This document shows, piece by piece, positions 139 through 26,429 of a stretch of DNA of 64,000 nucleotides; the stretch's first letter is position 1, and the number at the start of each line of letters is the position of its first letter. Made by a program: the position numbers and the translations under genes. The DNA is from an uncultured virus (IMG/VR IMGVR_UViG_3300029267_002644) (taxonomy: Duplodnaviria > Heunggongvirae > Uroviricota > Caudoviricetes). The DNA lies in the IMG/VR virus record IMGVR_UViG_3300029267_002644. One strand, 5' to 3'. The notes beneath the pieces were generated by a model. The model did no database searches and was not told the DNA's origin. It saw only the letters and a program-made list of their open reading frames with translations.

Positions 139-858
139 TGGCAAAAGGTAGCAATTAAGAAACTCCATGAAAAACATACTGTTAAAATACACAAAAGAAT
201 TGCAAAAATAAAAGAAAGAACGAAAGACAAAACACAACTAGATTCAAAAATTAAGAATGCAAAGAAAGAACTGGGTATAGATGAATTCATTCCTAATCAT
301 CTTGCGTATCTAGAAGGTAAAGATGCACATCTATATCTTTATGATATGATTTTCGCTCAAAAGTTTGCTGAGGAAAATCGAGCAATTATGATGACAACCA
401 TCCTTGACATTCTTGGCGCTAAACCAAAAGACGTAGTGGAGTCAGTCCATAACTATGTTGATCCACAAGATTATACAATTAGAAAAGGAGCAATAAGAAG
501 TGTTAAGGGTGAACGAATGATTATTCCATTTAATATGCGTGATGGTCTTCTTATATGTGAAGGAAAGAGCAACCCAGAATGGAACAACTCAGCACCACAC
601 GGAGCTGGTCGAGTATTGTCCAGAGCCAAAGCAAAGAAAGTATTGGACGTAAAACAATTTGAACATCAAATGAATGGTGTATTTTCAACAAGCATTGGAA
701 AGGGAACATTAGACGAAGCGCCAGATGCTTATAAAAATGCCTCAGTGATTGAGAATGCAATTGTTGATACAGCCATCATTTTAGATCGAATAAAACCTGT
801 TATGAACCTGAAAGATATAGGTAAGGAACAAAGAAGGAGAAAAGGGAACAAAATATAA
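139..858 (+). pseudogene. rtcB: RtcB-family RNA ligase, C-terminal portion (interrupted or split; first in-frame ATG at 346)
   Basis: WQKVA...LAYLEG...YLYDMIFAQKFAEENR...SVHNYVD...IRKGAI...IIPFNMRDG...WNNSAPHGAGRVLSR...DEAPDAYK are RtcB motifs; similarity begins right after the in-frame TAA at 136-138. Confidence 0.8.
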
Positions 859-17728: not shown

Positions 17729-17801
17729 GCGGCGGTGGTGTAACTGGTAGCACGCTGGACTCCAATCTAGAGGTCAGGTTCGAACCCTGTGAGCCGCTCC
17801 A
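17729..17801 (+). tRNA. degenerate tRNA-Gly(TCC)-like pseudo-tRNA
   Basis: GCGG...GCCGC-TCCA ends with D and T arms, but a 6-nt anticodon loop (CTCCAA) and mispaired stems. Confidence 0.55.
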
Positions 17802-17936: not shown

Positions 17937-18021
17937 GCGGCCGTAGGCAAATTGGTATGCCACCAGCCTTCCAAGCTGGCGCAGAAATGCACTGCCGGTT
18001 CGAGCCCGGTCGGCCGCTCCA
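17937..18021 (+). tRNA. tRNA-Gly(TCC) with long variable arm
   Basis: GCGGCCG/CGGCCGC-TCCA, CCAGC-CTTCCAA-GCTGG, V-arm GCA-GAAA-TGC. Confidence 0.85.
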
Positions 18022-20279: not shown

Positions 20280-20702
20280 ATGCATATAAACCCATTCCAA
20301 CGAAAGATAGAAGAACTGAGCAAGAGGATGAATTCAAAAAGAGACGATATTTCTATTGAAGAATGGCGCAGAAAAGTTGATGAAGGTTACTTTATTAAAA
20401 AACATGAGGAATACTTAGCAAATAGAAAGTTTAATAGTCCTCTATTAAAATACAGTGATGATGATAAAGTCATGATGTTAGAAGCTTTACAAGTTGGTAT
20501 TCCTGCCTTTATTCTATTTCAACAAATTGGTTTAACGGAGACTAGAAGTGAAGCTCGACGACTTATTAAACAAGGTGGCGCGTATTGTAATTCGAAACGC
20601 ATTGAGCATTTTGATATGCACATTAATGATAGCTATATTATTGACAATGAAATAACCTTAGCAGCAGGAAAGAAAAGAAGGGTGAAATTGGTGATTAGAT
20701 GA
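20280..20702 (+). CDS. protein with stand-alone S4 domain like the TyrRS C-terminus
   Basis: GL.ETRSEARRLIKQGGAYCN..RI...LAAGKKR. Confidence 0.75.
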   Translation: MHINPFQRKIEELSKRMNSKRDDISIEEWRRKVDEGYFIKKHEEYLANRKFNSPLLKYSDDDKVMMLEALQVGIPAFILFQQIGLTETRSEARRLIKQGGAYCNSKRIEHFDMHINDSYIIDNEITLAAGKKRRVKLVIR

Positions 20703-21220
20703 GTCCATCCTGTGGTGATAGATTACGTGAAGAGGTAAATGAAAGAGCTCGGCAACAAAGGAAAAAAGAAATTCCAATAAGAATGAGTAAGCCGAAGATC
20801 TTTTTATCAACTCCCGAAGTAGGGGAGATGATTGGAGTTTTTCACACAACAGTGCGTCGGTGGTGTGAACAAAAGAAAATTACTGCCTTCAGAGTAGGTC
20901 GTAATTGGAAAATTCCAATACCTGCTCTTCATAAATTTCTGTCTGATAGAGGCTTACCTCTGCCGCAGGACTTAAAAGAAGCGATGCCAAAAACAAATCG
21001 AATACGATTTGAACTTAGCGATAGCGAAATGGAGATGTATCAAAGTTGGGATGAAAAACATAGAACATATTGTCCCTTAGCAAATGGTAAAGATGGTGCT
21101 ATTGGTGGAAGAATATCTTTTAAGTTTACTCCAACTGGGCTTGGTACAGCCACAACTGTAGAATGTGGTTGTGGTCAAGGTGAATATAAAATGGATTTAA
21201 CTAACTATGATGAATGGTAG
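20699..21220 (+). CDS. excisionase/MerR-like HTH protein fused to a phage domain
   Basis: LSTPEVGEMIGV..TTVRRWC....I.AFRVGRNWKIP; C-terminal GAIGG...FTPTGLG...C.CG. Confidence 0.65.
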   Translation: MSPSCGDRLREEVNERARQQRKKEIPIRMSKPKIFLSTPEVGEMIGVFHTTVRRWCEQKKITAFRVGRNWKIPIPALHKFLSDRGLPLPQDLKEAMPKTNRIRFELSDSEMEMYQSWDEKHRTYCPLANGKDGAIGGRISFKFTPTGLGTATTVECGCGQGEYKMDLTNYDEW

Positions 21221-21787
21221 GTGAAAATGGGCAAGCCGATAGTGGTTAATTTGTTTGCAGGACCCGGAACTGGAAAGTCAACCACTGCAACAGGTGTATT
21301 CTCAATATTGAAACTCAATGGAGTCAACTGTGAATATGTGCCTGAGTTTGCAAAAGATTTAACTTGGGAGGAGAGATCCAAAACACTTCAAAATCAGATT
21401 TATCTATTTGGAAAACAATATCATAGAATGTGGAGATTGTTTGACCAGGTGGATGTAATTATTACTGATGCTCCATTTATTTTGGGTTTGGTATACGGTA
21501 TCTTTGATTTATCAATGATCCAAGTCATGATGGGAAGATTTGTTGAATGTAATAATCTCAACTTCTTTCTCAGACGTACTAAGCCTTATAACCCGAAGGG
21601 AAGAAACCAAACCCTAGAAGAAGCAAAACTCATTGATGGTCAAATTAAGGCAACACTGATCGGACATCAAATAGATTACTTTGAAATTGATGGTAACTAT
21701 GATGCAATAAATACAATTACTCATAGAGTTCTCAATGATTTGAAAATTACAAATATGGAGAGATATCGAATCGTGAAGGAGGAATAG
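21221..21787 (+). CDS. P-loop kinase/ATPase (NadR/AAA_28-like)
   Basis: AGPGTGKST Walker A, EFAKDLTWE, IITD, GRNQT.EEA. Confidence 0.7.
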   Translation: MKMGKPIVVNLFAGPGTGKSTTATGVFSILKLNGVNCEYVPEFAKDLTWEERSKTLQNQIYLFGKQYHRMWRLFDQVDVIITDAPFILGLVYGIFDLSMIQVMMGRFVECNNLNFFLRRTKPYNPKGRNQTLEEAKLIDGQIKATLIGHQIDYFEIDGNYDAINTITHRVLNDLKITNMERYRIVKEE

Positions 21788-21799
21788 ATGTATCACTTA

Positions 21800-21889
21800 G
21801 GGTCGGTCACCTAGTCAGGAGATGGTACCGGACTTTTAATCCGGCGGGACTACGTCCCCACGCGAGTTCAAATCTCGCCCGACCCACCA
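21800..21889 (+). tRNA. tRNA-Lys(TTT) with long variable arm
   Basis: GGGTCGG/CCGACCC-ACCA, CCGGA-CTTTTAA-TCCGG, V-arm GGGAC-TAC-GTCCC. Confidence 0.85.
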
Positions 21890-22370: not shown

Positions 22371-22805
22371 GTGAACGAGCGTAAAAGAGTTGCACTTGTT
22401 GCTCACGACGAAAGAAAGAAAGATTTGCTAGATTGGGTAAACCATAACAAAGAGGTGTTAAAACACCATACTTTATACGCAACAGGAACAACAGGAAGTG
22501 TCATTACTAGTCAGACAGGTTTAATAGTTAATTGTTTATCTAGTGGTCCTCTTGGAGGAGATCTCCAGTTAGGCGCTATGATTGCTAGTGATGACCTCGA
22601 TATGCTTATATTCTTCTGGGACCCCATGACGGCTCAACCTCACGATGTTGATGTAAAGGCGTTGTTACGAATTTCAGTCGTCCATAATATACCTGTTGCT
22701 TGTAATCGCTCAACTGCTGATTTTATTATATCAAGTAGTTTGGTTGATGAACCGTATTATCCAATTGTAAAAGATTATTCGAAACACTTAAATAGAGATG
22801 TTTAG
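22371..22805 (+). CDS. mgsA: methylglyoxal synthase
   Basis: ALVAHD.RK...YATGTTG...[12 protein letters not shown]...[19 protein letters not shown]. Confidence 0.95.
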
Positions 22806-22888
22806 GGCGTGTGACCCGAAAGGCAAGGGTGCCGGCTGCAACCCGGTAGCGAAAGCGTATGCAGGTTCGACTCCTGTCACGCCCTCCA
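22805..22888 (+). tRNA. tRNA-Cys(GCA) with long variable arm
   Basis: GGGCGTG/CACGCCC-TCCA, CTGCAAC loop, V region TAGCGAAAGCGTAT. Confidence 0.85.
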
Positions 22889-22950: not shown

Positions 22951-23283
22951 ATGTGGGTATGGATAGTTAGAATATTAAGATGGGTATTAGTTTCACTGGT
23001 TTGGAGGTTGCTCAAAGAGAGCGGAATCGGACTAGGTGAAATATCAGGTTGGATTTGGGAACAAATACAAAAGTTTAATGCGTGGTATAATAGTTTAAAA
23101 GAACCGACTCGTTTTAATGTTGCTATAACAATCGCGATTGGTCCGATTATTTTAGCAACAATGAACAATATGATTTTGAAAACAATCGGAATCATTTTGA
23201 TGATTGGTATTGTCGTTATTCGTATTTACCTTACGCAAATTAAAGTCAAAATTACAAACAAAAAGAAAGCCGATGTCGCTTAG
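22951..23283 (+). CDS. membrane protein
   Basis: AAGGAG RBS; hydrophobic segments. Confidence 0.5.
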   Translation: MWVWIVRILRWVLVSLVWRLLKESGIGLGEISGWIWEQIQKFNAWYNSLKEPTRFNVAITIAIGPIILATMNNMILKTIGIILMIGIVVIRIYLTQIKVKITNKKKADVA

Positions 23284-23354
23284 TGGTCGATAGCACCGGT
23301 CTTGTAAACCGGCGGAGAAATCCCTCGGGGGTTCGACTCCCTCCATCGGCTCCA
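23269..23354 (+). tRNA. tRNA-Thr(TGT) with long variable arm
   Basis: GCCGATG/CATCGGC-TCCA, CCGGT-CTTGTAA-ACCGG, V-arm GGA-GAAA-TCC. Confidence 0.85.
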
Positions 23355-23529
23355 AATTTTACTTATGAGCAAATTACAGGATTTGTGGCTGTTCATTTTA
23401 TTTTGTATAACTGTTGTTGGTGGTTTTATTCATTGGTTGTTAATTTTGTGTTCTGATGATATCACCATTGAGACAGAAGATGAAGAATGGTCCGTTACAT
23501 TTCCTGATTTGTCTAATACAAACCAATAA

Positions 23530-23619
23530 CTCCCAGTGGCGGAACTGGAACCGCAACGGACTTCTAATCCGTAGATCTCGAAAGAGTGTATGTGGGTTCG
23601 AATCCCACCTGGGAGTCCA
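23530..23619 (+). tRNA. tRNA-Arg(TCT) with long variable arm
   Basis: CTCCCAG/CTGGGAG-TCCA, ACGGA-CTTCTAA-TCCGT, V-arm CTC-GAAA-GAG. Confidence 0.85.
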
Positions 23620-23642
23620 CTTTCTTAAGAAAGGAGAAAATT

Positions 23643-23900
23643 TTGAGCGGGGATCCTGTTTTTACTAGCGATGGTTCGTGTCCGAAATGTGGAGAAAGAG
23701 ACCCTAATTGGGTTAAATCGTTAATGAATCGCATTGCTGGTTTCATAGCATTTTGTCCCAAATGTGAGACTGTGTTTATTGAGCCACTGGGTCAAGTTAA
23801 ACAACCAGAAAAGTATGTTCCAATTTGGGAAGATACTGATCACGCTTCAATTAAAACTATGCACCAAATTCAACAAGAAAGGAGTCGAGAGATGACGTAG
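23643..23900 (+). CDS. small zinc-ribbon protein
   Basis: TTG start after AAGGAG; CPKCG...FCPKCE; ends in TAG. Confidence 0.55.
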   Translation: MSGDPVFTSDGSCPKCGERDPNWVKSLMNRIAGFIAFCPKCETVFIEPLGQVKQPEKYVPIWEDTDHASIKTMHQIQQERSREMT

Positions 23901-23951
23901 GTTATTTTCGGCATTCCCCCGTAGGTAGTTGCTAGAGGTCCGCCTTATTAA
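23892..23951 (+). promoter_or_regulatory. putative amber-readthrough leader micro-ORF M-T-amber-VIFGIPP-amber-VVARGPPY
   Basis: AAAGGAG RBS 7 nt before ATG 23892; in-frame TAG at 23898 and 23922; RGPP then Y and TAA. Confidence 0.55.
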
Positions 23952-23996
23952 ATTATAATTTAAAAACCTAAATTATAATTTATAAGGAGACAAAAA

Positions 23997-24311
23997 ATGA
24001 AAAGAAAGCAACTACTACAAAAAGTAAAAGAAGAACAAAAGGCAAGGGCAAAAGACATTCGAGAACTTAAAAATACCAGGAAACAAGATAAACGTAATGG
24101 TAGATCTTTGTATGCAATTGAAGGTGATATTGCTTGGGAAAAGCATGAGTTTAGACACCACCATATTGCTTACTGTGAAATGAGGGGACGCACGAGAGAA
24201 GAAATTGAATGTCCCCGAGAAGACAATCTCCCAGTCCAGCGAGAGATTGATAGCATTAAAGACAAGTGGATGGAGCAGCTCGATGAAGATGTACATTCTG
24301 ACGCGGCGTGA
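23997..24311 (+). CDS. phage-type hypothetical protein
   Basis: AAGGAG RBS; FRHHHIAYCEMRGRTREEIE motif; overlaps the next gene. Confidence 0.6.
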   Translation: MKRKQLLQKVKEEQKARAKDIRELKNTRKQDKRNGRSLYAIEGDIAWEKHEFRHHHIAYCEMRGRTREEIECPREDNLPVQREIDSIKDKWMEQLDEDVHSDAA

Positions 24312-24570
24312 TCTCACTCCATCTCAACAGGCTGTTCAGGGGGGACATGCATTAGCAGAGTTCCTCCTGAACATCCCGCAAGATTGGAATAACAGCACTC
24401 TCGTTTATCTTGGAGTTAATGATGAAACCCATTTACATAGATGGGCACATAAGCTGGACATTTATGATATTGACTTCAAGGAGTGGCGAGAACCGGATAT
24501 GGGTAATGAGTTGACTGCTCTTGCAGCTTACTCAGATGGACGCATTTTTAAGAATTTGAATTTGTTATAA
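24283..24570 (+). CDS. PTH2-like peptidyl-tRNA hydrolase
   Basis: MYILTRRDL...QQAVQGGHALAEF...TLVYL.V..E...WREPD..NELTALA. Confidence 0.7.
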   Translation: MKMYILTRRDLTPSQQAVQGGHALAEFLLNIPQDWNNSTLVYLGVNDETHLHRWAHKLDIYDIDFKEWREPDMGNELTALAAYSDGRIFKNLNLL

Positions 24571-24577
24571 AGTGTGA

Positions 24578-24652
24578 AGGCGTGTAGCTGAGTGGCTTTA
24601 GCAGCTGTCTCTAAAACAGCTTACGTGGGTTCGATTCCCATCACGCCTTCCA
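24578..24652 (+). tRNA. amber suppressor tRNA (anticodon CTA), Trp-like scaffold
   Basis: AGGCGTG/CACGCCT-TCCA, GCTGT-CTCTAAA-ACAGC, canonical D and T loops. Confidence 0.85.
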
Positions 24653-24765
24653 TTATTTTTTTGTACAACAAAAAGTCAGGGGGAGTCGAACCCCCGTCTA
24701 CTAGTATGTTTTCACCAATTAAACTATATACTTAGATAATAATATATATAGAAAGGTATTGAATA

Positions 24766-25434
24766 ATGAATAGTCGAATTATACTACCGTTAGATCATAT
24801 GGATTGGGAAAAAGCTGAAATGATTATGGAGATGACCCAAGGAATGGTATGGGGTTATAAGATTAGAAAAACCATTCTTGAGAAAGGTCTCTGTGTTATT
24901 CAAAAAGCAAAAGAATATGGCAATGTTATGGTTGATTTTAAACTCTATGATATTCCAAGTGCTATTGATGAATCTGTTAAATCTCATCTCGAGAGTGGAG
25001 CTGATATCACAACTGTCCATTGCACAGCCGGATATATTCCTGTACCAGTCCAAGCAAAACATATTGCTGGTGTAACGATTTTGACTTCTATGGGGTCTTA
25101 TCAATATGAAAAATATTACAGAGGAGCAATGGATTCAGTCATCAGGTCAATGGCTCTTGATGCTGAGACATTTAGATATGGATATGTTGTTTGTTCTGCG
25201 CAAGATTTAACTGGTGATGTTCCACTTCCTGTACATAATACAAAAAAGATATGTCCAGGAATAAGACCACAATGGTATCAAGAGAACGATGATCAAAAAA
25301 GAACAATGACTCCGAAAGATGCTGTTGAGGCTGGAGCAGACTTGCTTGTTATTGGTCGACCTATTTTGAATTCATCAGATCCAATTAAAGCGATTCAAAG
25401 GACGAATGAGGAAATAGAATCTGCAGAAAAATAA
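24766..25434 (+). CDS. pyrF: orotidine-5'-phosphate decarboxylase
   Basis: DFKLYDIP, VTILTS, CPGIRP, DDQKRTMTP..A...GAD.LVIGRPI. Confidence 0.9.
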   Translation: MNSRIILPLDHMDWEKAEMIMEMTQGMVWGYKIRKTILEKGLCVIQKAKEYGNVMVDFKLYDIPSAIDESVKSHLESGADITTVHCTAGYIPVPVQAKHIAGVTILTSMGSYQYEKYYRGAMDSVIRSMALDAETFRYGYVVCSAQDLTGDVPLPVHNTKKICPGIRPQWYQENDDQKRTMTPKDAVEAGADLLVIGRPILNSSDPIKAIQRTNEEIESAEK

Positions 25435-25469
25435 ACGATCGGATGTAAAGTCCGTTCGTTTATTTTTTA

Positions 25470-26429
25470 CTATGGTTCTGTTGTAGATCTCCTTGGATCA
25501 AGATGTTTGATATATTCAGAAAACCAGTATGTATCATATTTACCAGAACCAACTTCCTTAGCAATGTATTTACATGCATGGAATAATGGCATTGGTTTAC
25601 GATATCCTCTGGAATTGGATGTAAGTGCTTCGATACAGTCAATAATCGATACAATCCGGCAGAACTCACTGATACCCTTACCGGACTTACCGTGATAACC
25701 AGAACCATCTAAACGTTCGTGATGATACATGGCAACGTCTCTGACTGCGAAGTTGATTTTCTCGTTCCCAAAATCAACTCGTTCGAGAAGGACAGCACCG
25801 ATGACTGTATGAGCTCGCATGGCGGTGTACTCTTCATCGGTAAGCTTTCTATCAGACTTTAAAATCTCGTCTGGTATTTGAGTCTTACCAATGTCATGGG
25901 TTAGACACGCCAGTGCAAAGATTCTAGTCTTGCGTTTCGACCATTTCATATACATGGCGAAACTAATTCCAAGACTCATAACTCGAACTGAATGAACCAA
26001 TGTTGAATAATCCTTATCACTAATAGAAAGGACTGATTTCAACATTTCTATACTACTACCATCAATCAGTTCATCAACTAGAGCTTTGATAGCATCTACT
26101 TTTGCACTGATTATATCGTTTGGATCGCTGAAGATCGTATCCTCAGCAATATCCTTAATGAGCTTCTTGGTATTACTGAGATCCCCAGAAGCCAAATTTT
26201 CTCTGAGCGCTGAAGTCCAACTTTCTTTCAGCTCATTAAACATCAACCCCTCATGAGCTTTTTGAGCGTATAATACTGAGGGTGCCATTCCCTTTTTCAT
26301 TCGTTCTTGCAGTGGCCGGTCACCATCAGAGTAAAGAACATACTGACCATCATACTTTCGGTATAATGGTGTCTTGTTCAGGTACTCCAACCTGCGGGGC
26401 GGCACTACAAAGTAGAGAGAGTCACTCAT
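25470..26429 (-). CDS. HD-GYP domain protein (cyclic-dinucleotide phosphodiesterase-like)
   Basis: HSVRV...HDIGK..IPDEILK...KLTDEEY..MRAH...HHERLDGSGY...R.YRK. Confidence 0.85.
   Translation of the reverse strand: MSDSLYFVVPPRRLEYLNKTPLYRKYDGQYVLYSDGDRPLQERMKKGMAPSVLYAQKAHEGLMFNELKESWTSALRENLASGDLSNTKKLIKDIAEDTIFSDPNDIISAKVDAIKALVDELIDGSSIEMLKSVLSISDKDYSTLVHSVRVMSLGISFAMYMKWSKRKTRIFALACLTHDIGKTQIPDEILKSDRKLTDEEYTAMRAHTVIGAVLLERVDFGNEKINFAVRDVAMYHHERLDGSGYHGKSGKGISEFCRIVSIIDCIEALTSNSRGYRKPMPLFHACKYIAKEVGSGKYDTYWFSEYIKHLDPRRSTTEP

What the first reader, a model, noticed from the sequence alone, without database searches (positions are those of the whole stretch)
23878..24652. Amber-sensing cassette: TAG-containing RGPP micro-ORF, PTH2-like hydrolase and amber-suppressor tRNA
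Seen: an AAAGGAG RBS, then ATG ACG TAG GTT ATT TTC GGC ATT CCC CCG TAG GTA GTT GCT AGA GGT CCG CCT TAT TAA, i.e. M-T-amber-VIFGIPP-amber-VVARGPPY. It is followed by a hypothetical gene, a PTH2-like peptidyl-tRNA hydrolase and a CTA-anticodon tRNA. The frame also extends the upstream zinc-ribbon ORF. Known: RAGP/RAPP/RGPP-type motifs (SecM, ApdA, ApdP class) and PP-stop contexts stall ribosomes. Inference: the RGPP motif is reached only when amber is read through, giving a sensor of RF1 activity or suppressor level that controls a ribosome-rescue/suppression module.
Basis: partly seen in the sequence, partly recalled or inferred. Interest (0 to 1): 0.8.

Follow-up and report, generated by a model that had tools for sequence, protein, structure and literature searches.

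The report
Phage leader that senses amber suppression
A large phage puts a tiny leader gene with two UAG stops and a ribosome-stalling Arg-Gly-Pro-Pro end in front of a hidden ribosome-binding site, so the two small proteins encoded beside its own UAG-reading tRNA are probably made only when that tRNA is working.

Summary
The window is a standard-code large phage. At 23878-23951 it has SD + ATG-ACG-TAG...CCC-CCG-TAG...AGA-GGT-CCG-CCT-TAT-TAA. The same design (SD, ATG, 1-2 in-frame TAGs, then R-x-P-P or K-P-P) precedes homologues of gene 23997-24311 in all 63 loci that have enough upstream sequence, and in 33 of 35 loci of a second set found through that gene. Arg uses all six codons and Gly all four, so the frame after TAG is translated. 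The Pro-Pro codons (CCUCC) or the next few bases pair with the Shine-Dalgarno of the downstream gene in 47 of 51 unique leaders, against 35 of 113 control genes. One locus with a TCA tRNA uses TGA as the leader's sensor codon. Lak phages with a TTA tRNA use TAA. The controlled operon is an unknown helical protein overlapping a true PTH2-fold protein, followed by the CUA tRNA. Best reading: a read-through-gated arrest leader that unmasks the SD only when the suppressor works. What the two proteins do (feedback on the suppressor, or clean-up after read-through) is open. I found no paper describing this. Other windows of this scan hold the same class.

The parts
23643..23900 (+). Zn-ribbon-like ORF (85 aa from TTG 23643). 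Its stop codon is the leader's first TAG. It is a neighbour, not a conserved part.
   Evidence: (weak Zn-ribbon and DUF6510 hits, all below cut-off). It is absent in the close relative L025, where the leader follows tRNA-Arg directly.
23878..23884 (+). Shine-Dalgarno (AAAGGAG) of the leader, 7 nt before ATG 23892
   Evidence: 41 of 53 unique leaders have their own SD+ATG at most 8 codons before the first TAG.
23892..23951 (+). Leader ORF M-T-TAG-VIFGIPP-TAG-VVARGPPY-TAA. Sensor codons at 23898-23900 and 23922-23924. Arrest core RGPP at 23934-23945.
23943..23987 (+). Hairpin. The 5' arm 23943-23962 begins at the second Pro codon. The loop is 23963-23968. The 3' arm 23969-23987 includes AAGG of the next SD. 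It holds the twice-repeated palindrome AAATTATAATTT.
   Evidence: strand folding (MFE -32.8, z -4.03, 0 of 200 shuffles as good). The palindrome occurs only at these two places in the window. Equivalent hairpins in relatives.
23984..23989 (+). Shine-Dalgarno (AAGGAG) of gene 23997, partly sequestered in the hairpin
23997..24311 (+). Gene for a 104-aa helical protein of unknown family with a basic N-terminal helix and an invariant R-H-x-H-I-A-Y-C...R-G-R..E-x-I-E motif (called 'HH protein' here)
   Evidence: AF2 pLDDT 90.8. No fold or family match. 561 unnamed relatives.
24283..24570 (+). PTH2-fold protein (95 aa from ATG 24283), overlapping the previous gene by 29 nt
   Evidence: PF01981 E 0.0049, below cut-off. 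33 of 55 relatives hit PF01981. Profile vs PDB 2zv3 E 2.3e-5. AF2 pLDDT 97.5. Foldseek TM 0.82-0.84 to archaeal PTH2 and Bit1.
24578..24652 (+). tRNA with anticodon CUA (amber suppressor), CCA encoded, 7 nt after the PTH2-like stop
   Evidence: A suppressor tRNA lies in 49 of 63 unique related loci with downstream sequence.

Best explanation
This is a read-through-gated translational switch in front of a phage suppressor-tRNA operon. Ribosomes start at the leader's own SD/ATG, or arrive from the Zn-ribbon ORF. Without suppression they terminate at UAG codon 3, the hairpin 23943-23987 stays closed, and the SD of gene 23997 is masked. If the phage's CUA tRNA reads both UAGs, the ribosome reaches Arg-Gly-Pro-Pro. 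There it arrests with CCG (23940-42) in the P site and CCU (23943-45) in the A site, as RAPP/RGPP arrest peptides do. The arrested ribosome sits on the 5' arm of the hairpin, whose base is the Pro-Pro codons acting as anti-SD. This frees the SD and turns on the overlapping genes for the HH protein and the PTH2-fold protein. Output therefore rises with roughly the square of suppression efficiency. What is shown (in silico): the leader, its translation past UAG, the motif, the hairpin, the gene set and the stop-codon/anticodon match. What is inferred: the arrest itself, the ON direction, and the role of the products. My preferred role is that they act on the ester bond of the suppressor tRNA or on peptidyl-tRNA made by read-through, giving either negative feedback or damage control.
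For: (1) Conservation in spite of divergence. The leader is present in 60 of 67 PTH2-anchored loci. It is present in all 63 loci that have the HH gene and enough upstream sequence, and in 0 of 5 loci without the HH gene. In an independent HH-anchored set it is present in 33 of 35. Controls: 63 of 647 windows for TAG..PP and 3 of 647 for TAG..RxPP.
(2) Translation past UAG. Among 53 unique leaders the core is RGPP 32, RSPP 5, RAPP 5, RDPP 4. Arg uses AGA 20, CGT 10, CGA 6, CGG 5, AGG 3, CGC 3, and Gly uses all 4 codons. The window and L025 differ by synonymous changes in F, P and P of the first segment.
(3) The motif spectrum equals the published arrest-competent set. RGPP is strongest, RAPP next, RDPP and RSPP are permissive, and EF-P gives no rescue (PMC12992588, passages). 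[quoted passage not shown]
(4) Hairpin. In the window z is -4.03. In 47 of 51 unique leaders at least 4 nt of the downstream SD pair with a partner within 15 nt of the first Pro codon, with median z -4.5. Among 113 control genes the figures are 35 and median z -0.58. In the independent set the figures are 23 of 30 and median z -3.6. Inner stems differ between loci while pairing is kept.
(5) Sensor codon matches anticodon. TAG goes with CUA in the bulk of loci. L080 has a UCA tRNA, a leader MKSHI-TGA-LVFIRGP-TAA, and an in-frame TGA in its PTH2-like gene. Lak phages have a UUA tRNA and a leader M(E/K)LQHW-TAA-VT..RG(P/SP).
(6) The same logic is built in other ways. There is one in-frame TAG inside the PTH2-like gene in 7 loci. 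M-K-TAG opens the PTH2-like ORF in L013 and the HD-PTH2 fusion of phages RAS14, Xoo-sp13 and XacN1.
(7) The base after leader TAGs is a purine in 85 of 86 cases.
(8) This is not a recoded genome. TAG ends 20 of 90 crude ORFs, including PolB and the DnaB-like helicase.
(9) The HH and PTH2-like ORFs overlap in 45 of 46 unique loci.
Against: There is no experiment and no RNA run (none listed). Arrest by RGPP after nascent chains of only 8-20 residues has not been shown. [quoted passage not shown] A sizeable minority of leaders end in x-K-P-P-stop, N/F-R-P-P-stop or R-G-P-stop. None of the papers I read names these as arrest cores, so in those a ribosome terminating slowly on the anti-SD may do the job instead. 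Four of 51 and 7 of 30 leaders lack a clear SD pairing in the MFE fold, and the hairpins are AU-rich, so predictions are soft. The loci are related by descent and were found through conserved peptide words, so the counts are not independent events. The TGA and TAA classes rest on one locus and one phage group. The amino acid carried by the tRNA is unknown. The ON direction is read from geometry only: the SD lies 35-65 nt beyond the stall site. TAG-ending genes of the window show no extra back-up stops.
Confidence: 0.75

Rival explanations
1. Nothing regulatory. TAG 23898 is only the stop of the Zn-ribbon gene. The rest up to 23996 is spacer, and the SD/ATG and RGPP are chance.
For: The first TAG is indeed that ORF's stop. 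The window alone cannot exclude chance.
Against: The element recurs upstream of the HH gene in 63 of 63 and 33 of 35 loci, whatever gene lies upstream. Codon-level selection on R-G-P-P is seen. The Zn-ribbon ORF is absent in the closest relative, which keeps the leader.
Confidence: 0.02
2. In these phages TAG is an ordinary sense codon (recoded, code-15-like). The leader would then be a constitutive arrest peptide that answers to some other signal, with no sensing of suppression.
For: Some relatives carry in-frame TAG inside the PTH2-like gene. Lak phages are described as recoded (preprint 10.1101/2021.08.26.457843, passages).
Against: The window's phage ends 20 of 90 crude ORFs in TAG, including PolB, and keeps long ORFs under table 11. 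There are 1-2 TAGs in every 8-20-codon leader, always before the arrest core. The stop codon changes with the anticodon of the linked tRNA. The leaders leave no room for a sensor domain.
Confidence: 0.07
3. The leader works in the opposite direction or at another level. Early termination at UAG could expose RNA to Rho or RNases (polarity on the downstream genes and tRNA). Or the stalled ribosome could repress rather than activate.
For: The tRNA lies downstream in the same orientation, 0-100 nt after the PTH2-like gene in 34 of 63 unique loci. A tRNA can only be controlled through RNA synthesis or stability.
Against: The conserved feature is pairing of the anti-SD with the SD (47 of 51). No U-run follows the hairpin, and no terminator-like site was called between 23900 and 24570 on the + strand. 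The SD lies too far (35-65 nt) from the stall for steric blocking.
Confidence: 0.1
4. Minigene reading. SD+AUG+one codon+UAG is a lambda-bar-like minigene whose product (dipeptidyl-tRNA drop-off) is the substrate or trigger for the PTH2-like hydrolase. The post-TAG part would be secondary.
For: M-T-TAG, M-L-TAG, M-R-TAG and M-K-TAG starts are common. A peptidyl-tRNA-hydrolase-fold gene follows. The bar/Pth link is recalled from my own knowledge, not from a call.
Against: This does not explain selection on R-x-P-P after the TAG, the second TAG in 32 of 53 leaders, or leaders with 4-8 codons or a long ORF before the first TAG.
Confidence: 0.04

Closest known systems
RAPP/RGPP-type regulatory arrest peptides (ApdA, ApdP, ApcA; SecM with RAGP)
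   Same: An R-[AG]-P-P core sits at the end of a small upstream ORF, with a downstream gene in the same direction. [quoted passage not shown] The motif spectrum here (RGPP > RSPP = RAPP > RDPP) matches the arrest-competent set.
   Different: The known ones carry a signal peptide or membrane segment and are released by Sec/YidC pulling. Here the leader is 8-20 codons, and whether the core is reached at all is decided by 1-2 in-frame stop codons. The element is in phages and controls a PTH2-fold protein, an unknown protein and a suppressor tRNA. PMC12992588 has 0 occurrences of 'phage' or 'suppressor'.
RF2 (prfB) autoregulation by an in-frame UGA (recalled, no call)
   Same: An early in-frame stop codon in a translation-factor operon measures the contest between termination and an alternative decoding event.
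   Different: prfB uses a +1 frameshift inside the coding gene. Here read-through by a dedicated tRNA occurs in a separate leader coupled to an arrest motif and an SD hairpin.
Leader-peptide translation attenuation (ermC/cat type) and tRNA-sensing attenuators (trp, his) (recalled, no call)
   Same: The position of a ribosome on a short leader decides which RNA structure forms. In ermC a stalled ribosome frees the SD of the next gene. In trp and his the regulatory codons report the supply of one charged tRNA.
   Different: The signal here is decoding of a stop codon by a suppressor tRNA against a release factor. No terminator/antiterminator pair or U-run is present.
'Code change module' of stop-codon-recoded phages (suppressor tRNA + aaRS + release factor)
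   Same: A phage-encoded suppressor tRNA is grouped with translation-related genes (10.1101/2021.08.26.457843, passages).
   Different: That text has 0 occurrences of 'hydrolase', 'leader' or 'stall'. The window's phage uses the standard code. The partners here are a PTH2-fold protein and an unknown helical protein, under a read-through sensor.
Peptidyl-tRNA hydrolase 2 (PTH2, PF01981; archaeal/eukaryotic Pth2, Bit1)
   Same: The fold matches (TM 0.82-0.84). The profile matches 2zv3 over the full length, including the Q-G-G-H-A motif.
   Different: It is shorter (95 vs about 115 aa). It falls below Pfam's cut-off as a single sequence. R-E-P-D stands where 2zv3 has R-D-A-G. The Lys before the motif is Pro in the window's protein. 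It is tied to suppressor tRNAs.

Membership tests
RAPP/RGPP-type arrest peptides | R-[A/G]-P-P (or permissive R-[S/D]-P-P) core near the C-terminus of a small ORF | tested here: met
   Window RGPP at 23934-23945, one codon before TAA. 46 of 53 unique leaders have RGPP, RSPP, RAPP or RDPP.
RAPP/RGPP-type arrest peptides | Core conserved as amino acids (synonymous codon turnover) | tested here: met
   Arg uses all six codons and Gly all four across 53 unique leaders.
RAPP/RGPP-type arrest peptides | Downstream gene whose SD is occluded by a structure that a stalled ribosome would open | tested here: met
   In silico only. Window hairpin z -4.03. 47 of 51 leaders vs 35 of 113 controls. 23 of 30 in the second set.
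RAPP/RGPP-type arrest peptides | Measured elongation arrest (peptidyl-tRNA accumulation, toeprint) | not testable with these tools
   No experiment. No RNA or ribosome-profiling run was listed.
RAPP/RGPP-type arrest peptides | N-terminal localisation signal that couples arrest release to Sec/YidC activity | tested here: not met
   Leaders have 8-20 codons, and 41 of 53 have at most 8 codons before the first TAG. There is no room for a signal peptide. It therefore works like this family but is not a Sec/YidC monitoring substrate.
PTH2 (PF01981) | Score above Pfam gathering threshold | tested here: not met
   Window protein scores 17.5-18.5 bits against a cut-off of 23. 33 of 55 relatives match at E <= 0.01, best 1.2e-9.
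PTH2 (PF01981) | PTH2 fold | tested here: met
   AF2 pLDDT 97.5. Foldseek 2zv3 E 1.2e-6, TMq 0.82-0.84. 3erj, 1xty, 1q7s and 1wn2 all have prob 1.00. Profile vs 2zv3 E 2.3e-5.
PTH2 (PF01981) | Catalytic residues and ester-hydrolase activity on peptidyl-tRNA | tested here: inconclusive
   Q16-H22, E70, P71 and T78 are invariant. E70 aligns with the Asp of R-D-A-G in 2zv3. The Lys before the motif is not kept in the window's protein. Activity cannot be tested here.
Amber suppressor tRNA | Canonical tRNA with anticodon CUA | tested here: met
   ARAGORN. Rfam RF00005 62.6 bits. 51 unique relatives keep the CUCUAAA anticodon loop.
Amber suppressor tRNA | Is charged and decodes UAG | tested here: inconclusive
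   Evidence is indirect only: amino-acid-level selection downstream of UAG and in-frame UAG in PTH2-like genes. The amino acid is unknown.
Stop-codon-recoded phage (code 15) | In-frame TAG in many core genes and poor coding density under table 11 | tested here: not met
   85% of the window is covered by table-11 ORFs. TAG ends 20 of 90 crude ORFs. PolB, portal, capsid and helicase are intact. Reading TAG as sense adds little.
Transcription attenuators (trp/his type) | Alternative terminator hairpin followed by a U-run | tested here: not met
   The hairpin is followed by AGACAAAAAAUG. No + strand terminator-like site lies between 23900 and 24570.

The most novel reading that the evidence does not exclude
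The cassette is a self-contained controller of genetic-code ambiguity. The leader measures how well the phage's suppressor tRNA beats the release factor, and is ultrasensitive because two stops must be passed. It then doses a two-protein enzyme (the PTH2-fold hydrolase plus its basic helical partner) that acts specifically on the ester bond of the suppressor tRNA. The enzyme would deacylate the tRNA or recycle its peptidyl form. A standard-code phage could thus hold read-through at a set level or flip it on at a set time. The same sensor has been re-tuned to UGA and UAA by changing one codon together with the anticodon.
Probability: 0.3. Interest if true: 0.9.

Novelty: new variant of a known kind. 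Interest (0 to 1): 0.85.

Why it matters
Why phages that use the standard code carry suppressor tRNAs has been an open question. The XacN1 paper states that no target of its two CUA tRNAs could be found (PMC5852040, passage). This cassette gives a conserved, directly testable target and a logic: a natural sensor of stop-codon read-through built from an RGPP arrest core and an anti-SD made of the Pro-Pro codons. It widens the known inputs of arrest peptides from secretion and small molecules to decoding itself. It ties a PTH2-fold enzyme and a family of 561+ unnamed proteins to suppressor tRNAs. It could also serve as a compact part for measuring or gating amber suppression in synthetic biology. 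Relatives in cultured phages make it accessible to experiment: mycobacteriophages of genus Bixzunavirus, and Xanthomonas and Stenotrophomonas jumbo phages.

Tried and rejected
- Whole genome: none is held.
- blastn of 23400-25500 against isolate phages: no match.
- Single-sequence searches with the HH protein found nothing (viral contigs; tblastn on phages). The alignment A3 later found 35 loci.
- HH protein function: no Pfam or PHROG family. Pfam over 48 members gave only one weak row on one member, a chance helical hit. The PDB profile gave nothing below E 0.2. Foldseek gave nothing at E <= 0.001. VIA-align wide gave best Z 7.3, generic helical hairpins. The ESM Atlas had no usable hit. The 561 relatives are all unnamed.
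- Complex prediction of PTH2-like with HH protein: 'no answer', which says nothing either way.
- tRNA identity: nearest-tRNA comparison was scattered over Arg, Thr, Phe and Lys. By eye in the alignment the discriminator base is mostly A or U. Residues aligned to in-frame TAGs are variable loop positions. Identity was left open.
- RNA runs: no RNA holder was listed.
- Back-up stops after TAG-ending genes: no signal.
- Genome collection: one locus only, on a MAG contig.
- The palindrome AAATTATAATTT as an operator: it occurs only at the two hairpin arms, so I read it as RNA stem, not as a protein site.
- Literature searches for a prior description found none. Supplements of the papers were not opened.
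Full report
**What is there.** The window is part of a large phage genome. It encodes a T4-type portal, prohead protease and major capsid protein, a UDG-PolB fusion, a DnaB-like helicase, an RtcB fragment and other RNA-repair-type domains. It carries 21 tRNA genes in its first 27 kb. GC content is 38.7%. No whole genome is held, and no isolate phage matches the region by blastn.

- AAAGGAG lies at 23878-84 and ATG at 23892.
- The TAGs lie at 23898 and 23922.
- AGA-GGT-CCG-CCT lies at 23934-45 and TAA at 23949.
- The frame continues a Zn-ribbon-like ORF, probable start TTG 23643.
- Then come a 104-aa ORF (23997-24311), an overlapping 95-aa ORF (24283-24570) and a CUA-anticodon tRNA (24578-24652).

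**The phage uses the standard code.** Table-11 ORFs cover 85% of the window. TAG ends 20 of 90 crude ORFs, including PolB and the helicase. Reading TAG as sense adds little.

**The refutation test.** I fetched relatives of the 95-aa protein: 7 viral contigs and 73 metagenome contigs. L024 is the window's own contig, and L025 and L026 are 93% relatives.

In the first six loci examined, every one had SD + ATG, an early TAG and a Pro-Pro near the final stop, whatever gene lay upstream. Examples are M-L-TAG-SYNERSPPE, M-R-TAG-MTKPP, MMPFQ-TAG-IVRGPP..., M-L-TAG-TGPP and M-T-TAG-IYKPP.

Over all loci, 'TAG, at most 12 sense codons, PP' sits 311-455 nt before the PTH2-like start in 60 of 67 loci with at least 450 nt upstream. 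In other 600-nt windows of the same loci, both strands, it occurs in 63 of 647. 'TAG..R-x-P-P' occurs in 53 of 67 against 3 of 647.

An HMM of the 104-aa protein (the 'HH protein', after its R-H-x-H-I-A-Y-C motif) hits 70 of the 80 loci.

- 61 of the 70 have the leader.
- L044 has it further upstream, because another gene is inserted.
- L080 has a TGA version.
- The remaining 7 are cut by contig ends.
- None of the 5 loci without the HH gene has a leader.

A second set, found through the HH protein instead, gave 35 viral loci, two of them on contigs already seen. Among these, 33 have the leader, 28 have a suppressor tRNA and 33 have a PTH2-like gene.

**The frame after TAG is translated.** The 53 unique leaders end in RGPP 32, RSPP 5, RAPP 5, RDPP 4, RRPP 1 and others 6. 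Arg is written with all six codons (AGA 20, CGT 10, CGA 6, CGG 5, AGG 3, CGC 3) and Gly with all four. Between the window and L025 the first segment changes by synonymous substitutions in F, P and P. No ATG, GTG or TTG follows the TAGs in the window. The codon after the last TAG is Ile or Val in 41 of 53 leaders, and the base after leader TAGs is a purine in 85 of 86 cases. From my own recall, a purine there favours suppression. Thirty-two leaders have two TAGs and 21 have one. Forty-one have their own SD+ATG at most 8 codons before the first TAG.

**Why RGPP.** PMC12992588 (passages read) reports the following.

- RGPP gives the most robust arrest in several contexts, and RAPP is next.
- RDPP and RSPP are partly permissive.
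- EF-P does not relieve the arrest.
- RGPP is the most avoided tetrapeptide in many bacterial phyla.

PMC10951233 (abstract) shows that RAPP stalls with RAP in the P site and Pro-tRNA accommodated in the A site. The motif spectrum of these leaders is the same set.

**The RNA switch.** In the window, 23943-23962 pairs with 23969-23987. The 5' arm starts at the second Pro codon, and the 3' arm holds AAGG of the SD AAGGAG (23984-89) of gene 23997. The MFE is -32.8 kcal/mol, z is -4.03, and 0 of 200 shuffles fold as well. The arms are the two copies of AAATTATAATTT, which occur nowhere else in the window.

Across loci the Pro-Pro codons themselves (CCUCC) or the next 10-15 nt pair with the GGAGG of the downstream gene, while the inner stems differ.

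| Set | SD >= 4 nt paired, partner within 15 nt of first Pro codon | Median z | z < -3 |
|---|---|---|---|
| Unique leaders | 47 of 51 | -4.5 | 42 |
| Other SD-bearing genes, same loci (SD paired upstream; no distance limit) | 35 of 113 | -0.58 | 9 |
| Independent set | 23 of 30 | -3.6 | 22 |

A ribosome arrested with CCG in the P site and CCU in the A site would hold the 5' arm open and free the SD. The SD lies 35-65 nt downstream, too far for steric blocking. So the inferred direction is ON when the stops are read through.

**Sensor codon and anticodon go together.**

- Most linked tRNAs are CUA and the leaders use TAG.
- L080 carries a UCA tRNA. Its leader is MKSHI-TGA-LVFIRGP-TAA with an SD-hiding hairpin, and its PTH2-like gene has an in-frame TGA.
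- Lak phages carry a UUA tRNA. Thirty nt after it comes M(E/K)LQHW-TAA-VT..RG(P/SP), followed by a hairpin before an HH-like gene and the PTH2-like gene.

The last two classes are thin: one locus and one phage group.

**The same gate in other forms.**

- Seven loci have a single in-frame TAG inside the PTH2-like gene, at variable loop positions.
- In L013 the PTH2-like ORF opens M-K-TAG.
- In the cultured phages RAS14, Xoo-sp13 and XacN1, an HD-PTH2 fusion opens M-K-TAG or M-K-K-TAG, followed by a conserved sequence, and the annotated CDS starts later. The XacN1 paper says no target of its two CUA tRNAs was found (passage).
- A Bixzunavirus mycobacteriophage has its annotated peptidyl-tRNA hydrolase 250 nt before tRNA(cta).

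**The controlled genes.** The 95-aa protein has a PTH2 fold.

- 33 of 55 relatives match PF01981, although the window's copy is below the cut-off.
- The family profile matches 2zv3 at E 2.3e-5.
- The AF2 model (pLDDT 97.5) matches archaeal PTH2 and Bit1 at TM 0.82-0.84.

The HH protein is all-helical (pLDDT 90.8). Residues 1-36 are strongly basic: 15 Lys/Arg against 5 acidic, by my count from the sequence. It has no recognisable relatives of known function. The two ORFs overlap in 45 of 46 unique loci, so the leader probably governs both.

Among 63 unique loci with downstream sequence, a suppressor tRNA starts 0-100 nt after the PTH2-like gene in 34. It lies somewhere in the locus in 49, and it is the only tRNA of the locus in 25.

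**What the products do is not shown.** One reading is negative feedback: the hydrolase removes the amino acid or peptide from the suppressor tRNA. Another is damage control: read-through by suppressor tRNAs creates tmRNA substrates (review PMC3985003, passage citing Ueda 2002). The complex prediction gave no answer.

**Prior knowledge.** Four full-text searches and the recoding preprint gave no description of such a leader or of a PTH2-suppressor link. Earlier notes of this scan describe the same class in other genomes. They agree with this reading but are not independent evidence.

**Verdict.** I rate it a new variant of a known kind: an arrest-peptide leader with an SD hairpin whose input is stop-codon read-through.

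Noticed in passing
window 23530-23619, 21800-21889, 23269-23354, 17937-18021, 22805-22888: tRNAs Arg(tct) 90 nt, Lys(ttt) 90 nt, Thr(tgt) 86 nt, Gly(tcc) 85 nt and Cys(gca) 84 nt carry a class-II-like long variable arm, a short stem with a GAAA-type loop. These isotypes are normally class I. The relative L025 has ordinary 76-nt Arg and 75-nt Cys tRNAs.
   Followed up: partly
window 24671-24733 (- strand): A truncated tRNA-like element (Rfam tRNA 33.1 bits, 63 nt) lies directly after the suppressor tRNA on the opposite strand. Its T-arm also scores as a terminator-like hairpin.
   Followed up: no
window 17729-17801: ARAGORN calls a tRNA with a two-base 'anticodon' (cc), of undetermined type.
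   Followed up: no
window 20699-21787 (TAG at 21218); also 34998 and 52462 (-): Adjacent ORFs are in the same frame, separated only by TAG: HTH_17 protein (173 aa) + AAA_28 protein (188 aa), radical-SAM ORF + 72 codons, and kinase-like ORF + 149 codons. These are possible read-through fusions under the suppressor, or chance.
   Followed up: partly
L008 1940, L011 1937, L014 1940 (phages RAS14, Xoo-sp13, XacN1): The HD-domain + PTH2-like fusion gene really seems to begin M-K-TAG or M-K-K-TAG, with conserved residues right after the TAG. The deposited annotation starts about 25 codons later.
   Followed up: partly
L013 (LR756500) after the PTH2-like gene: A second leader, VMK-TAG-IKITIRGPTYLF-TAA, stands in front of a different, unrelated gene and before the CUA tRNA. 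The sensor may therefore be reused for other genes.
   Followed up: no
L044 223-1290: A gene with repeated K-x-S-x-x-x-K-G motifs, which looks to me (not searched) like a homing endonuclease, is inserted between the HH gene and the PTH2-like gene. It splits the otherwise overlapping pair.
   Followed up: no
window 346-858: The RtcB-like ORF (170 aa) matches only positions 237-425 of the 426-position RtcB profile. The first half is not in the 345 nt before it, so the gene is split or truncated.
   Followed up: no
window 23881-23917: A second predicted hairpin pairs the leader's own SD region with 23901-23917 and puts the first TAG in its loop. It was not checked in relatives.
   Followed up: no
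L005 3285-3911: In the one viral locus without a leader, HH gene or suppressor tRNA, the ORF right after the PTH2-like gene has a GGCVRD...DYD motif. I read it, without a search, as a CCA-adding enzyme.
   Followed up: no
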